A DNA stretch of 64,000 nt from Candidatus Brocadiia bacterium. Lineage in GTDB: Bacteria; Planctomycetota; Brocadiia; SM23-32. Shown here piece by piece: positions 57,001 to 64,000 of this stretch. Location of the stretch: the NCBI GenBank assembly GCA_046538485.1, contig JBKHIT010000008.1, positions 32,001-96,000 of the forward strand, written 5' to 3'. Made by a program: the position numbers. How positions within the stretch are numbered: position 1 is the stretch's first letter; every line of letters starts with the position of its first letter.

Positions 57001-60000
57001 CGAACTGGGAACCGTCAGACGAGCCGCCCCCCTCACCCCGTTTTCCGGAACTCATGATGGATGGGGTGGGCGCGGGGCTTCATCTGGATGACGAGCCAGA
57101 GCAGATTTTTCCGCTTCCGATCCGGCAGATGTGCTCAAAACTCGCCGAAAATCTGCCGTCGGCCCTTGAGTTTCTACAACGATACTCACCGTTCTGGGGC
57201 GCGCAAAATCTGCTGCTGCACGACCGCCAGAAATGCAGCATCGCCATCGAAAAGACAAGCTATAATTTCATGGACGTTTATGAACCCGGCACATCCGGTG
57301 AGAGCCATATCAGCGGGATGGTCTGCCGGGAACCCAAAACCGAGCAAGGACGATACGTCGAACGAAAACGCAAAGAGTTCACCGAACGGATCGGACAGGA
57401 TGAAGAGGGGCCCTGCGGAAAATTCTGGCAGGCGTGCGACCGCGCGGAACAAATGCTGGCGGAATTGCTGTCGAAGGTAGATGTCACCATCGATGAAATA
57501 CTGGAGCTTTTCACCACGACCTGGCCGGAAGGACTCAACAAAGCCGGCGCGGTTTTTCATCCGGATCAGCCCTACGCCTCATGGACACTGGTCACACACG
57601 CCCGGTTGCCGGATCAAGGAATGGTTTTACGCTGGCAGCGCAGCGCCGATGGCGCGTATCCCGATAAACCGCAAGTGTTTGAATACCCGATGGGATAACG
57701 GGTTTTTCTGCGGTTTGGACACAAAACAGACTACCGCACCCTGCAGTGGAAACCGACACTTTTCAGCCATTCCTTCTCACGGCCCGGCATCCGTTTCCCA
57801 ATTTCAGACCCAGCTTACACGTATCCGAGATGCCCCTACATGTAGGGCGTGATCGCCGGGCGCGCCCTGCCGTATTGCCCCGAAACAAAAGACGGCGAAC
57901 AACAAACGGCAGTTCCGCCTCAGTCCCCCCTACCGCGGAGACCTGCAGCTTTCTGATAATTCTCCTTTCCGGTCTGTCCCCCGTCCATTGGAACGGAAGA
58001 CGGTCTTCGCACGCAGCGGCCGGTTTGCGGACGCGTTGTTTTACGGCTGAACTTCGATCTCCACGGGCTGGGTCGCATCGCGGACCTCCGGCTCGTAGTA
58101 CTGATAGACTTCCGTCGGAGGCGTCTTGGCCTTAACGGGGTATTTGGCCCGCAGGTGATACGTGAACCGTACGGGTTCGTTGCCGACAATGCTCTCGAAA
58201 TACAGGATCACCTGTCGACCGGTCAGGGAATATCGCTGAATCAAGCCCTGCTCTTTCAGGCGGTCAAAATCCTCCGTCATGACCTGAAAGCCCGGCGGAA
58301 TGCCCAGATCAACAATTGTCATGCGGGCCACACCGCTCCGGTTGTAGCGGATCGTCGCCTCGCACGCTAATTTGTCGTCCGGACGCAACTTCGTGGTATC
58401 GTACGCTACATCGATGCTCATGGTCTTCTGGGTGGTCGGGGTTTTTCTCTCCCAGGGGAGGTAATGGGTGGCGACGATCTGGTAGGCAAAATTCGCTTCC
58501 CCGGCCGGTTCCAGAGATATCCGGTTGGGTCCGGGTTTCTGGTGTTCGCGCAGGCTGATCAGCCGGAAAACATCGCTGGTCTCCGGCGTGATGGTCAGTT
58601 CTCTGGCGAATTTTCCGTTGACCGAGATCGTGATCGGGAGGTCTTGTTTCAGTTCGGTTGCGGGCCCGGTGCCAGCAAGGAGGGCGCGCATCGCGTGTAC
58701 AGTAGCCTGGGTGGAATGCCACGTGCCGGCTGAATCTTTCTCCTCGATGAGCCAGGCCAGAGCTCTGTGCGCCGTGCCGAGATGAGATTGAGCTTTCAAC
58801 ATCGCGTATGCGGCCAGGGCCGTGGTTTCAATGTTCAGGACATTGCCCCGGGAGTGGGTCACACCCTCCGATTTGGAACTCCAGTGCGCAAGGTCTCCGT
58901 CCTCCTTTTTCGTGGCGTCAAGCATCTTAATTAAATCCCCGGCGCCGGATCGCTCGCCCGCGACGAGCGCATTGGCGCAGACGGCAAGCGTGTAAGCGTC
59001 TTCGTCGCTCGATACGTTCTGTTCGACGTAGTCGAGGGCACGTGAAAGGTTGGAGTCTACGTTTCCCGACTCCGCCAGAGCCCATGCGATGTAGGCGGTT
59101 GTTCGGAGGACGGCGCCCTGGTAGGCGTTGATGGCACCTTCCTGGATGCCCCCCTGGGTCGGTTCCCATGAGCCATTGCGTTTTTGCTGCGAGAACAACC
59201 ACCGGCGCGTTCGCTGTATGACGGCGGGATCGACCTCATAAACTTTCGCCATGTCGTTGAATTCCATCAGACCGTACGCTGTCAGAACGCTGTGGGCGGG
59301 CGCGTTTCCGAACCATTCGAATCCGCCCCCGCTGACTTCGTAGGAGAGCAGACGCTGGTAACCGAGGTTGATGTAATTGAGCGCTTTCATCTCGATTTCG
59401 GGCCTGGATTGATCCGTGCGGCGCATGTAGTCGAGCGCCAGAATGTTGGGGTATGTCACTGAAGACGTCTGTTCGAAACAGCCAAACGGTTTGCGGAAGA
59501 TGCTGTCCAGTCCTTCCATCACCTGGCTGAAGGCGCCGGGATAGATTTTCACCAGCAGGTCGGAGGCGCCATCGATGGCCCGATCGGGAATCACGACCGT
59601 GCGGTTCAGTTTGCCGGTGAGGCGCCCGTTATCCGTCTGGACGATCTCTTTGCCGTCGGGTCGGACGCGGACCTTACGCCGGATCGCGTCGGCCATCTCG
59701 GATCCGAAAGCGCGAACGGTGAGGGTGTGGCGGCCGGGTTTGAGCGCGCGCAGTTTCATCGGGATACTCGTAACTTCCCGGGGACCGATTTCGAGCCGGC
59801 GTTCGGTCTCCCCGAGCATCTCGCACCAATCCGCATCGTCGACTTCCAGCCGGATCAGCTGGGTTTCGTCGAGATAGTTGTAGAGGGCGATCGGGACGCT
59901 GATTTCGTCGTGTTGGGTGAGGGCGACCGGGAAATCAATATCCACAAAGAAATCCTGAAACACCCGCAGCCCGAAGGTCTCCGCGCCCAATCTTCCCTGT

Positions 60001-63000: not shown

Positions 63001-64000
63001 TGCGTCTGCGCCGCTTTTATGGTCCTTTCGGCCAGATCTTCGGGAGGAGGAGGTGCATCCCATTCCCGCAGAGCTTCCTTCTGGCGGCGTATCTTGTCCC
63101 GTGCCTGCCGGCATTCGCGGCAGATTTGCAGGTGTTTTTCTACCTGCTCTCTTTCATCTCCATCGAGCAGATCGAAGACCAGGTCATAGAGTTTTTGCTG
63201 GACTTCTTCGCACTTCATATATTTTCACTTTCGGTTACTGGTTTTGAGAGACGTCATGAGCTTCGGCGATATCTTCCAGCTGTTTGCGGAGTTTCTGAAG
63301 GGCCAACCGCATTCTGGATTTGACGGTTCCCGGAGGTATCTGAACAGTATCGGCAATTTCGGCGTAGGTCATCTCGTGGTAAATCTTGAGGATGAATACC
63401 TCTTTCTGTTCGGCGGGGAGTTCGCTGACGGCCTCCTCAATTCGTTCCCCAATTTCCTGGCACTCTATTCGGTGCGGAGGTGAGGGGTCAGATGAGCGGG
63501 GTTCCGGAGAACCGTTGAGCGGACGTGAATCTCTGCTTCCTTTTTTGCGCCAGTGCGAGCGACAGAGGTTCGTCGCGATTGTGTAGAGCCAGGTTTTGAA
63601 CGAACTGTTTCCCCGGAAAGATTCGGCCTTCTGGAAGACCCGCATAAACGTTTCCTGAAAAAGATCCGCCGCGACGGTGCGGTTTCCCGTCAGTTTGTAG
63701 AGCAGACCATGGAGTGGTTTTTCATACCGCCTTACCATCGTCTCAAACATGGTCATATCGCCCTCTATAAAGCCAAAAAGAAGGTCTTTGTCGCTTAACT
63801 CCGTACGATCCCCGCGATAAGAGCGACTCTGCGGTGCGGGGGTCGATTCCATTTGTGTCTCCTGTTAAGCGTAGACGCATGGGCGTCCCGAATTGATCAC
63901 CAAAAAATGCCAAAAAAACAAAAAAACAGCTCCGACGGTCAATTCGGGGTGTGCATGATAACTTCTCGGTGGTGGGAACGACAATCAAAACAGCACCGAT

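What a model noticed while it worked through the whole genome (the two positions that open the first line are those of the whole stretch)
58041..63852. An anti-sigma factor whose sensor is a complete thioester alpha-2-macroglobulin with a six-helix membrane bundle in plac [...]
g03779 (C134:90041-95218, minus, 1725 aa) joins three things not described together: a cytoplasmic zf-HC2 anti-sigma domain (H29-x3-C33-x2-C36), one membrane helix (99-118), and a full periplasmic alpha-2-macroglobulin (MG domains, bait-region domain, MG7, thioester domain with an intact GCFEQ at 1246-1250, receptor-binding domain). Between the bait-region domain and MG7, where A2Ms carry the protease bait and C3/C5 the anaphylatoxin domain, it holds a disordered ~70-residue linker followed by six hydrophobic helices (about 765-985) predicted with high confidence as a membrane bundle. 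The gene lies 16 bp behind the ECF sigma factor gene g03780. Proposal: a protease-sensing signal device, in [...]
Evidence so far: Pfam rows with coordinates: zf-HC2 3-37, MG2 136-319, MG3 327-401, A2M_BRD 538-676, A2M 1036-1125, TED_complement 1229-1513, A2M_recep 1631-1713; sigma g03780 at 95235-95852. Thioester motif and hydropathy: peaks at 99, 765, 820, 854, 896, 925, 967; the three other A2Ms of this genome (g00952, g01043, g02044, the last next to PBP1c) have only an N-terminal signal anchor. AlphaFold2 of residues 520-1140 with 21 sequences: mean pLDDT 74; beta MG domains, linker 674-744 pLDDT <50, helices 748-1004 pLDDT about 85-95, then MG7; Foldseek hits only A2M/C3/C5/CD109 over the beta parts. 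The bundle alone (residues 745-1010, 21 sequences): mean pLDDT 90.4, pTM 0.82, seven long helices; no Foldseek matc [...]
(Added by a program. Inside this text positions count along the whole contig: contig position 32,001 is position 1 of the stretch shown here. "Call 12" and the like, gene names such as g00115 and contig names such as C1 are that model's own, and its searches are not shown. The text may have been shortened before it was handed on; [...] marks where a part breaks off. The agent that wrote the report below was given it as the finding of a first reader that could run no searches.)

Follow-up and report, generated by a model that had tools for sequence, protein, structure and literature searches.

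The report
Anti-sigma factor fused to membrane-embedded macroglobulin
A bacterial gene pair encodes a stress sigma factor and its membrane-bound inhibitor, whose outer part is a complete complement-like thioester protease trap that dips into the membrane six times, which suggests that bacteria can use such a trap as a sensor.

Summary
Window 58041-63218(-) encodes a 1725-aa protein with these parts: a zf-HC2 anti-sigma domain, one TM helix, MG domains, a bait-region domain, a 6-helix membrane bundle between two disordered linkers, MG7, a thioester domain (GCFEQ) and a receptor-binding domain. An ECF sigma gene lies 16 bp upstream.

New here:
- The bundle marks a whole A2M clade. It gave 72 representative clusters and 40 of the 80 loci kept, from Planctomycetota, Verrucomicrobiota, Lentisphaerota, Acidobacteriota and Myxococcota. 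It was found only inside A2Ms.
- The bundle occurs with and without sigma coupling: 19 of 27 complete loci have a sigma gene directly upstream. It is therefore not a signalling add-on.
- Sigma coupling goes with a long cytoplasmic N-terminus of at least three sequence types.
- Loop charges and TM counts of 2, 6 and 8 favour a chain that returns to the periplasm.
- The A2M part is closer to A2ML1, CD109 and C3 than to E. coli ECAM. The bundle sits where C3 has its anaphylatoxin domain.

Best reading (about 0.5): a single-use protease trap whose consumption frees the sigma factor. The mechanism is inferred. No paper describing this architecture was found. It is a new variant of a known kind.

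The parts
63871..63897 (-). Candidate ECF-type promoter. A 27-nt site ends in CGTCTAC, 25 nt before the sigma start codon. This is a lead only.
   Evidence: The same 7-mer lies at -25 in L047 and at -87 in L012. Some shared 7-mer arises in 270 of 2000 shuffles. The 27-nt pattern with up to 1 mismatch occurs in the genome only here and once inside an ORF.
63235..63852 (-). ECF sigma factor gene (205 aa)
   Evidence: Sigma70_r2 39-105 and Sigma70_r4_2 136-188. TIGR02937 sigma70-ECF scores 117.8 bits against a cut-off of 42.9.
63219..63234 (-). 16-bp spacer between the sigma stop codon and the anti-sigma start codon
58041..63218 (-). Anti-sigma::A2M gene, 1725 aa
63108..63212 (-). zf-HC2 anti-sigma domain core (residues 3-37; H29, C33, C36)
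   Evidence: PF13490 scores 34.4 bits against a cut-off of 22.2. The motif is in the sequence.
62865..62924 (-). N-terminal TM helix (residues 99-118), preceded by a juxtamembrane motif (WLGSKRFW here)
   Evidence: Hydropathy peak of 2.07. The motif is conserved even in relatives without an anti-sigma domain.
61191..62813 (-). Periplasmic MG domains and bait-region domain (residues 136-676)
   Evidence: Pfam MG2, MG3 and A2M_BRD. Beta structure in the model.
60984..61190 (-). Disordered linker before the bundle (residues 677-745)
   Evidence: pLDDT below 50 at 677-719 and 722-745
60210..60977 (-). Membrane bundle (residues 748-1003): a pre-helix 748-771 that runs into TM1, six TM helices, and TM6 extended to 1003
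   Evidence: Hydropathy. AlphaFold2 pLDDT mostly 90-98. Loop charges follow the positive-inside rule.
60123..60209 (-). Linker after the bundle (residues 1004-1032). It is hypervariable in length and sequence, and is the likeliest bait. It ends in the invariant R-V-R..FPET.
   Evidence: Alignment A5. pLDDT below 50 at 999-1035. It aligns just before the start of the C3b alpha' chain.
59844..60113 (-). MG7 (Pfam A2M, residues 1036-1125)
58680..59534 (-). Thioester domain (residues 1229-1513)
   Evidence: PF07678, E 8.9e-49
59469..59483 (-). Thioester motif GCFEQ (residues 1246-1250)
   Evidence: GC.EQ is present in 53 of the 54 family proteins that reach this region.
58080..58328 (-). Receptor-binding / C-terminal MG domain (residues 1631-1713)
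   Evidence: PF07677

Best explanation
This is a two-gene unit. The ECF sigma factor is held at the inner membrane by the cytoplasmic zinc-type anti-sigma domain (residues 1 to about 95) of the 1725-aa protein. After one TM helix, the rest of that protein is a complete eukaryote-like thioester alpha-2-macroglobulin in the periplasm. At the site where C3 carries its anaphylatoxin domain and A2M carries its bait, the chain enters the membrane as a six-helix bundle, so both halves of the A2M stay periplasmic. The bundle is joined to MG6 by two disordered linkers, and the second linker is hypervariable like a bait. Proposed action: a protease that reaches the periplasm cuts a linker. The A2M then fires as in other family members, with a conformational change and exposure of the thioester, and the molecule is spent. 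The spent anti-sigma is removed, most simply by regulated intramembrane proteolysis. The freed sigma transcribes at least its own operon, which replaces the trap and starts a response. The bundle is not the signalling device. It is the hallmark of an A2M clade that exists with and without sigma coupling, and it most likely acts as a membrane anchor or lock that keeps the bait at the membrane surface. Shown here: the architecture, the topology evidence, conservation of the thioester motif, sigma adjacency and its link to the N-terminus type. Inferred: binding to the sigma, protease as the signal, the route of release, and autoregulation.
For: The sigma gene is co-directional and 16 bp upstream.

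Relatives: the bundle profile finds 72 representative clusters. All the long ones are A2Ms with the bundle at about residues 640-1110 (P0079, 2051 aa, about 1240-1360). My bundle HMM hits 40 of the 80 loci kept.

A sigma gene lies directly upstream in 19 of 27 bundle-bearing loci with a complete 5' end. In the other 8 loci the call rests on phmmer or hmmsearch with the window's sigma.

All sigma-coupled genes have 62-167 residues before the first TM helix. Of the 8 uncoupled genes, six have about 20-33 residues, L027 has a decayed 51-residue N-terminus, and L026 keeps a type C N-terminus of about 60 residues.

The coupled N-termini fall into three sequence types: zf-HC2, a cysteine-free LLDG..E..ELE type, and a short DGxLRE type.

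Topology: across 28 sequences the mean net charge is +1.96 for loop 1-2, +4.18 for loop 3-4 (K+R exceeds D+E in 27 of 28) and +1.86 for loop 5-6 (26 of 28). It is 0.0 for loop 2-3 and -1.32 for loop 4-5. Variants have 2 TM helices (L056, L074, P0057), 6 TM helices (35 of 51 proteins and 29 of 39 loci) or 8 (P0009, P0028).

The thioester motif is present in 53 of 54 family proteins.

The closest solved proteins are A2ML1 (6.5e-68), CD109, A2M, C3 and TEP1. C3b alpha' residue 16 aligns with residue 1030. Both linkers are predicted disordered, and the second varies greatly in length.

The genome encodes M50 site-2 proteases. The activation logic of bacterial A2Ms by bait cleavage is taken from passages of PMC4498604.
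Against: No experiment or expression data exist, and no RNA run was listed.

8 of the 27 complete bundle-bearing loci have no adjacent sigma, so the A2M clade works without sigma coupling.

Bait cleavage near residue 700 or 1010 does not shorten the periplasmic stub next to the anti-sigma TM helix, and classical site-2 proteolysis needs that shortening. An extra step is therefore required.

The promoter lead is statistically weak: some shared 7-mer arises in 270 of 2000 shuffles. Autoregulation is therefore not shown.

Only 3 phylogenetically independent contrasts link sigma presence to N-terminus length. That is too few for a test.

Crude hydropathy counts give 5 TM helices in 10 of 51 proteins and 2 of 39 loci at the 1.6 threshold. 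These are probably threshold misses, but that is not proven.

The NCBIfam 'antisigma' model scores 45.7 bits, below its cut-off of 100.
Confidence: 0.5

Rival explanations
1. Feedback gauge only. The anti-sigma domain titrates the sigma one-to-one, so the operon shuts itself off once enough A2M sits in the membrane. Sigma is freed by ordinary turnover or dilution. No protease signal is read, and the A2M simply does its usual protective job.
For: The two-gene unit has no other conserved partner gene in relatives. The bundle-bearing A2M functions without a sigma in 8 of 27 loci. Sigma coupling was gained or lost at least twice on the tree, as expected for an easily added expression control.
Against: Three different N-terminal anti-sigma types are attached to the same A2M clade. 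That argues for selection on the link between this periplasmic module and a sigma, not just on expression level. In known ECF systems, membrane anti-sigma factors respond to extracytoplasmic cues (established knowledge, not tested here).
Confidence: 0.2
2. A sensor of something other than proteases. The thioester could be fired by small nucleophiles. Or the six-helix bundle could read membrane perturbation (lipid damage, pore formers) and trigger the A2M or the anti-sigma from within the membrane.
For: The bundle, the cytoplasmic juxtamembrane motif before the first TM helix and the cytoplasmic loops (RRxP, PLLRK) are the conserved parts of the membrane module. A mere anchor would not need six helices, and 2-TM variants exist.
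Against: Within the bundle only P898 is invariant across 28 sequences, and no polar intramembrane residue is conserved. The fold matches only generic helical bundles, with Z at most 8.3. The hypervariable disordered linker is typical of a bait for many proteases.
Confidence: 0.15
3. Not a working anti-sigma factor. The N-terminal zinc-finger-like segment is a leftover or has another role, and the neighbouring sigma gene is regulated independently.
For: The NCBIfam anti-sigma models are below their cut-offs. Binding was not tested.
Against: The Pfam zf-HC2 hit is above its cut-off and has an intact HxxxCxxC. The gap is 16 bp. Sigma adjacency recurs in 19 of 27 complete loci from several phyla and tracks the long N-terminus.
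Confidence: 0.05
4. Assembly or gene-calling artefact that joins separate genes in a metagenome-assembled genome.
For: The genome is a 143-contig assembly, 88% complete with 4% contamination.
Against: The same uninterrupted architecture is found in dozens of independent assemblies. The stretch occurs in runs from two studies.
Confidence: 0.01

Closest known systems
Eukaryote-type thioester proteins: A2ML1, CD109, alpha-2-macroglobulin, complement C3/C4/C5, insect TEP1
   Same: The order of MG domains is the same: an insert inside MG6, then MG7, a TED with CxEQ, and a C-terminal MG/receptor-binding domain. These are the best sequence matches among solved structures (A2ML1 6.5e-68, CD109 8.9e-67, A2M about 1e-63, C3 about 5e-49) and the best fold matches. 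The activation site is in the same place: residue 1030 aligns with residue 16 of the C3b alpha' chain.
   Different: The known proteins are soluble or GPI-anchored. None has transmembrane helices at the bait/anaphylatoxin site or a cytoplasmic regulatory domain. Here the insert is a six-helix membrane bundle and the N-terminus is an anti-sigma domain.
Bacterial Type I A2Ms: E. coli ECAM (YfhM) and Salmonella SaA2M
   Same: They are periplasmic, inner-membrane-anchored, thioester-bearing protease traps activated by cleavage of a disordered bait (passages of PMC4498604; abstract of PMC5764988).
   Different: They are only distant in sequence (E 3.4e-08 and 1.1e-07, partial), and the Pfam bMG3 and bMG10 hits are below their cut-offs. 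ECAM is described as anchored through its N-terminal domains and paired with PBP1c. Here no PBP1c gene is adjacent in the window or in the 28 related loci whose neighbours were scanned. The anchor here is 1 + 6 TM helices, and the gene is paired with an ECF sigma.
Single-pass ECF anti-sigma factors with zf-HC2 domains (RsiW/RseA/ChrR-like; names recalled)
   Same: An N-terminal cytoplasmic anti-sigma domain with HxxxCxxC is followed by one TM helix and an extracytoplasmic sensor part. The gene lies directly after its sigma gene.
   Different: The sensor part has about 1600 residues. It re-enters the membrane six times and is a full thioester protein. The release route is unknown.
Pseudomonas aeruginosa MagD complex (Type II A2M)
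   Same: A bacterial A2M is kept at the inner membrane by dedicated membrane partners for periplasm protection (abstract and section headings of PMC5764988).
   Different: MagD lacks the thioester and relies on separate proteins (MagA, MagB, MagF). Here the membrane part is built into the A2M chain, and the thioester is conserved.

Membership tests
Class I (zinc-type) ECF anti-sigma factor | zf-HC2 anti-sigma domain above the Pfam threshold, with the HxxxCxxC motif | tested here: met
   PF13490 covers residues 3-37 at 34.4 bits against a cut-off of 22.2. H29, C33 and C36 are present.
Class I (zinc-type) ECF anti-sigma factor | Encoded next to, and co-directional with, an ECF sigma gene | tested here: met
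   The gap is 16 bp. The sigma has Pfam r2 and r4_2 and matches TIGR02937. Adjacency recurs in 19 of 27 complete related loci.
Class I (zinc-type) ECF anti-sigma factor | Match to curated NCBIfam anti-sigma models | tested here: not met
   NF052375 scores 45.7 bits against a cut-off of 100. TIGR03988 scores 17.3 against 62.5. These are narrow equivalog models.
Class I (zinc-type) ECF anti-sigma factor | Binds and inhibits its sigma factor | not tested
Bench tests are needed.
Thioester-containing A2M/C3 superfamily (Type I A2M) | MG domains, bait-region domain, MG7, TED and C-terminal MG domain in the canonical order | tested here: met
   All Pfam families are above their cut-offs. Sequence matches to A2ML1, CD109, A2M and C3. 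Fold matches.
Thioester-containing A2M/C3 superfamily (Type I A2M) | CxEQ thioester motif in the TED | tested here: met
   GCFEQ at 1246-1250. GC.EQ is present in 53 of 54 family proteins.
Thioester-containing A2M/C3 superfamily (Type I A2M) | Protease cleavage of the bait triggers trapping and thioester reaction | not testable with these tools
   The only evidence is predicted disorder of the linkers and length variability.
ECAM-type bacterial A2M (YfhM/SaA2M) | Close sequence kinship, the bacterial MG domain set, and a PBP1c neighbour | tested here: not met
   E is only 1e-7 to 3e-8 over a part of the protein. bMG3 scores 29.3 against a cut-off of 34.9, and bMG10 scores 20.8 against 26.2. 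No PBP1c-like neighbour was found.
Complement C3/C4/C5 | Anaphylatoxin domain between the two halves of MG6 | tested here: not met
   Residues 677-1035 hold the linkers and the membrane bundle. Pfam finds no ANATO domain in the protein, and the insert alone gives nothing better than E 0.58.
Pseudopilin (GspG-like) N-terminal helix as the origin of TM6 | Match to GspG / T2SSG models | tested here: inconclusive
   The window's residues 940-1035 gave no hit. The 2-TM relatives L056 and P0072 hit TIGR01710 at E 1.4e-4 and 5.3e-3, far below the cut-off. Inserts of the bundle-less sister clade hit T2SSG at E 0.005 and 0.0067, below the cut-off.

The most novel reading that the evidence does not exclude
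A complement-like thioester protein works as a true transmembrane receptor. Bait cleavage or thioester firing in the periplasm would be passed through a seven-helix membrane module to the cytoplasmic anti-sigma domain, releasing the ECF sigma by a conformational change rather than by degradation. The module would consist of the N-terminal TM helix with its conserved cytoplasmic juxtamembrane motif plus the six-helix bundle with its conserved cytoplasmic loops. This coupling would have been built at least three times, with different anti-sigma domain types, on the same A2M clade. That would make it a bacterial counterpart of 'complement activation read out as gene expression'.
Probability: 0.15. 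Interest if true: 0.9.

Novelty: new variant of a known kind. Interest (0 to 1): 0.72.

Why it matters
Thioester proteins of the A2M/complement family are known as soluble or lipid-anchored effectors, and none is known as the input domain of a transcription switch. This clade does two new things. It puts a multi-pass membrane domain exactly at the activation site of the fold, and it repeatedly ties the protein to an ECF sigma factor. If the proposed logic holds, it would be a simple way for a cell to detect that foreign proteases have reached its periplasm and to replace a suicide inhibitor as it is consumed. It would also give structural biologists a natural A2M whose bait is pinned to a membrane. 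The family occurs in several poorly studied phyla (Planctomycetota, Verrucomicrobiota, Lentisphaerota, Acidobacteriota, Myxococcota). In the databases I searched it carries only generic names.

Tried and rejected
- The ESM Atlas search by features on the bundle gave no usable hit, and no Atlas structure was held.
- Pfam on the bundle alone gave only L6_membrane at E 0.58.
- The search for related loci with the bundle-only alignment A2 failed because it had no conserved stretch. I then used the full-length alignment A1.
- In alignment A4 (bundle fragment against whole proteins) the fragment's end was misplaced. I replaced it with A5, built from cut regions.
- Fold searches with the bundle model: Foldseek against the PDB gave nothing at E<=0.001. 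VIA-align against 48,161 chains gave a best Z of 8.3, to generic helical bundles such as an OST subunit, chemoreceptor sensor domains and designed bundles. That is below the level that means anything for helical bundles. Neither result shows that the fold is new.
- Complex prediction of the N-terminal TM segment (residues 60-135) against the bundle (residues 740-1010) returned 'no answer' with a score of 0.01, and the controls were not run. It is no evidence either way.
- Sequencing runs: no RNA holder was listed. The DNA is held by runs labelled microbial mat and salt lake, from two studies.
- Promoter and regulon: the shared CGTCTAC motif is not significant on its own, since 270 of 2000 shuffles share some 7-mer. 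The genome-wide pattern search gave only the operon's own site and one intragenic site. No regulon can be named.
- The independent-contrast test of sigma presence against N-terminus length had only 3 contrasts on supported branches.
- Literature: 'anti-sigma' with 'macroglobulin' gave 6 incidental papers. 'Extracytoplasmic function' with 'alpha-2-macroglobulin' gave 0. 'Bacterial alpha-2-macroglobulin' with 'transmembrane' gave 0. 'Macroglobulin', 'ECF' and 'sigma factor' gave 2 incidental papers. 'A2M_N' with 'sigma' gave only irrelevant papers. 'Anti-sigma factor', 'thioester', 'MG2' gave nothing relevant among the 12 listed. I judged all of these from the search listings only. Supplements of the ECF classification papers were not examined and might list this domain combination.

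
Full report
**What is there.** The window is contig C134:32001-96000 of a 5.19-Mb, 143-contig assembly that is 88% complete. On the minus strand, ORF 63235..63852 (205 aa) is followed after 16 bp by ORF 58041..63218 (1725 aa). The small protein is an ECF sigma factor, with Sigma70_r2, Sigma70_r4_2 and TIGR02937 all above their cut-offs. For the large protein, Pfam finds zf-HC2 3-37, MG2, MG3, A2M_BRD 538-676, A2M (MG7) 1036-1125, TED 1229-1513 and A2M_recep 1631-1713, all above their cut-offs. The sequence holds H29-x3-C33-x2-C36 and GCFEQ at 1246-1250. Hydropathy peaks start at 99, 765, 820, 854, 896, 925 and 967. Neighbouring genes encode a class-III aminotransferase and oxidoreductases upstream, and two unknowns (385 and 199 aa), a PcRGLX-like protein and Obg downstream. 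They are unrelated or give no family match. A gene on the opposite strand ends 343 nt from the stop codon, so this is a two-gene unit.

**The insert.** I folded residues 722-1036 with 28 family sequences. The result was mean pLDDT 86.5 and pTM 0.76. The helices were 723-734, 748-771 running into 773-794, 804-842, 848-880, 888-918, 922-951 and 956-1003. The 'seventh helix' is thus a periplasmic extension of TM1, and TM6 also extends about 18 residues beyond the membrane. I folded residues 520-1140 with 26 sequences. This gave mean pLDDT 75.1, beta domains on both sides, and pLDDT below 50 at 677-719, 722-745 and 999-1035. Foldseek matched that model only to C5, A2M, CD109, C3, C4, cobra venom factor and A2ML1. 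By sequence, the closest solved proteins are A2ML1 (6.5e-68), CD109, human A2M, C3 and TEP1. E. coli ECAM and Salmonella SaA2M are far weaker (1e-7, 3e-8). Residue 16 of the C3b alpha' chain aligns with residue 1030. The linkers and bundle therefore occupy exactly the anaphylatoxin/bait position, and the second linker lies where C3 is cut on activation.

**Topology.** I measured mean net charge (K+R minus D+E) across 28 aligned family members. It is +1.96 for loop 1-2. It is +4.18 for loop 3-4, with K+R above D+E in 27 of 28. It is +1.86 for loop 5-6, with 26 of 28. It is 0.0 for loop 2-3 and -1.32 for loop 4-5. This is the positive-inside pattern of a six-TM insert whose two ends are periplasmic. 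Natural variants point the same way:
- P0009 and P0028 have an extra hairpin, giving 8 TM helices.
- L056, L074 and P0057 have a single hairpin, giving 2. P0072's one long hydrophobic stretch also looks like a hairpin.
- The majority have 6: 35 of 51 proteins and 29 of 39 loci at a hydropathy threshold of 1.6.

Against this, the crude count gives 5 in 10 of 51 proteins and 2 of 39 loci. It gives unclear numbers (9-12) for L057 and P0079. At a threshold of 1.4 most of the fives become 6, while a few others become 7. The pre-TM1 segment is also basic (+2.18), which the model explains as a surface helix. Topology remains predicted.

**What the bundle is.**
- A profile of the insert, searched against 1.84 billion representatives, found 72 proteins at E<=0.001.
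- Every long hit is an A2M, with the match at about residues 640-1110 (P0079, 2051 aa, at about 1240-1360). The short hits look like fragments. No free-standing membrane protein family appeared.
- Pfam, the ESM Atlas, Foldseek and VIA-align give nothing specific. The best Z is 8.3, to generic bundles.
- Within the bundle only P898 is invariant, and no polar intramembrane residue is conserved. The conserved positions lie mostly at the cytoplasmic loop ends, in RRxP and PLLRK.

An enzyme or a transporter is therefore unlikely.

**The family.** A scan of one genome per species found 456 stretches that encode relatives of this A2M subfamily, and the best 80 were kept. My bundle HMM hits 40 of these 80. 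They come from Planctomycetota, Verrucomicrobiota, Lentisphaerota, Acidobacteriota (Thermoanaerobaculia), Myxococcota and others. In a sample of 401 genomes of the window's phylum, 18 matched the profile, and about 11 of these matched strongly over the whole bundle. The window's own genome has one match.

I built a tree from the part C-terminal to the insert (49 rows; L049 was dropped as too short, and loci whose gene is cut off were left out). The bundle-less proteins form one side of a branch with 99% support. These bundle-less relatives carry a soluble insert of about 240-335 residues at the same site, with weak, below-threshold similarity to pseudopilin GspG. The thioester motif GC.EQ is kept in 53 of the 54 family proteins that reach it.

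**Sigma coupling.** 27 bundle-bearing loci have a complete 5' end.
- 19 have an ECF sigma gene directly upstream on the same strand. In the other eight loci the call rests on phmmer or hmmsearch with the window's sigma.
- All coupled genes have 62-167 residues before the first TM helix.
- Of the 8 uncoupled genes, six have about 20-33 residues. L026 keeps a type C N-terminus of about 60 residues without a sigma neighbour. L027 has a decayed 51-residue version.
- The coupled N-termini are of three kinds: zf-HC2 (window, L012, L047; also the 2-TM form L056); a cysteine-free LLDG..E..ELE..DP.A type; and a short DGxLRE type. Only 6 of 23 long-N-terminus representatives hit Pfam zf-HC2.
- On the tree, sigma coupling needs 5 changes, at least 2 of them forced by supported branches. 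Only 3 independent contrasts exist, too few for a test.
- An ECF sigma also lies upstream of 3 of the 27 complete bundle-less loci: L073 directly, and L064 and L078 with one ORF between.
- A cytoplasmic juxtamembrane motif (VEPxxxWLGxRRFW) precedes the first TM helix even in most plain forms (L021, L049, L050 and L059; not L052 or L083).

**Reading.** The anti-sigma assignment is well supported by the domain, the motif, the adjacency and its recurrence. Binding itself was not tested. The bundle belongs to the A2M clade, not to the signalling function. The most economical mechanism is as follows. A protease cuts one of the disordered linkers; the hypervariable one after the bundle is the best bait candidate. 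The A2M then fires as described for ECAM, where untethering of the bait releases the thioester domain (passages of PMC4498604). The spent molecule is removed and the sigma is freed. The genome has M50 site-2 proteases, but these are ubiquitous. A difficulty is that bait cleavage does not shorten the stub next to the anti-sigma TM helix, so a further step is needed, or the signal is conformational.

A shared CGTCTAC lies 25 nt (window, L047) or 87 nt (L012) before the sigma start. It looks like an ECF -10 element (a recalled resemblance), but it is not significant by itself. The 27-nt pattern occurs elsewhere in the genome only once, inside an ORF. Autoregulation and a small regulon remain a lead.

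**Novelty.** Six literature searches found no description of an anti-sigma/A2M fusion or of an A2M with a membrane insert. I judged these from the listings only, and most subscription-journal papers and the supplements of ECF classification papers were not covered. Two bacterial A2M types are described: Type I with a thioester and Type II without (abstract of PMC5764988). ECAM is described as anchored through its N-terminal MG domains and paired with PBP1c (passages of PMC4498604). This clade fits neither description in its anchoring or its gene context. I rate it a new variant of known kinds: an ECF anti-sigma with a new sensor, and a thioester protein with a new insert.

Noticed in passing
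L037:10750-11472, L075:10687-11691 (bundle-less relatives): The sister clade without the membrane bundle carries a soluble insert of about 240-335 residues at the same bait/anaphylatoxin site. The insert has a DPWG...GPDG...DD motif and weak T2SSG (pseudopilin GspG) hits at E 0.005 and 0.0067, below the cut-off. The bait site of this A2M subfamily seems to be a hotspot for inserted modules.
   Followed up: partly
L056:11161-11994; P0072 residues 836-881; L083 insert; window 60210-60350 (TM6): In the 2-TM variants the second helix resembles the N-terminal helix of GspG-type pseudopilins (TIGR01710 at E 1.4e-4 and 5.3e-3, far below the cut-off). L083's last TM helix also looks prepilin-like. The window's TM6 ends in LLLPALS.AR, a similar motif, but gave no hit. 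TM6 may derive from a pseudopilin helix.
   Followed up: partly
L009:3636-5342, L010:6552-8213: In two Verrucomicrobiota loci an M12B reprolysin-like metallopeptidase gene lies just upstream of the sigma/anti-sigma-A2M pair.
   Followed up: no
L006:6822-8766, L009:11589-13668, L010:14224-14796, L011:6715-8645, L014:6423-8846: In five Verrucomicrobiota loci a second ECF sigma gene (Sigma70_ECF type) follows the A2M gene directly. In four of them (L010's locus ends inside the sigma gene) an ORF of 426-558 aa without a Pfam match comes next. This may be a second sigma/anti-sigma pair in tandem.
   Followed up: partly
L012:205-1924: In the Phycisphaerae relative L012, an rve-type integrase gene and a phage-integrase-family gene lie directly upstream of the sigma gene. 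This hints that the module can sit next to mobile DNA.
   Followed up: no
L064:6236-8045, L078:6296-8021, L073:7826-8524: Three bundle-less relatives (one named Poribacteria, one unclassified and close to it, one Thermoguttaceae) also have an ECF sigma gene upstream. In two of them an ORF of 365-456 aa without a Pfam match lies between, possibly an unfused anti-sigma.
   Followed up: partly
window 63853-64000 and L005:854-1457: About 600 nt of non-coding sequence lie upstream of the sigma gene, with T-rich runs just before the candidate promoter. That is unusually long for this genome region.
   Followed up: no
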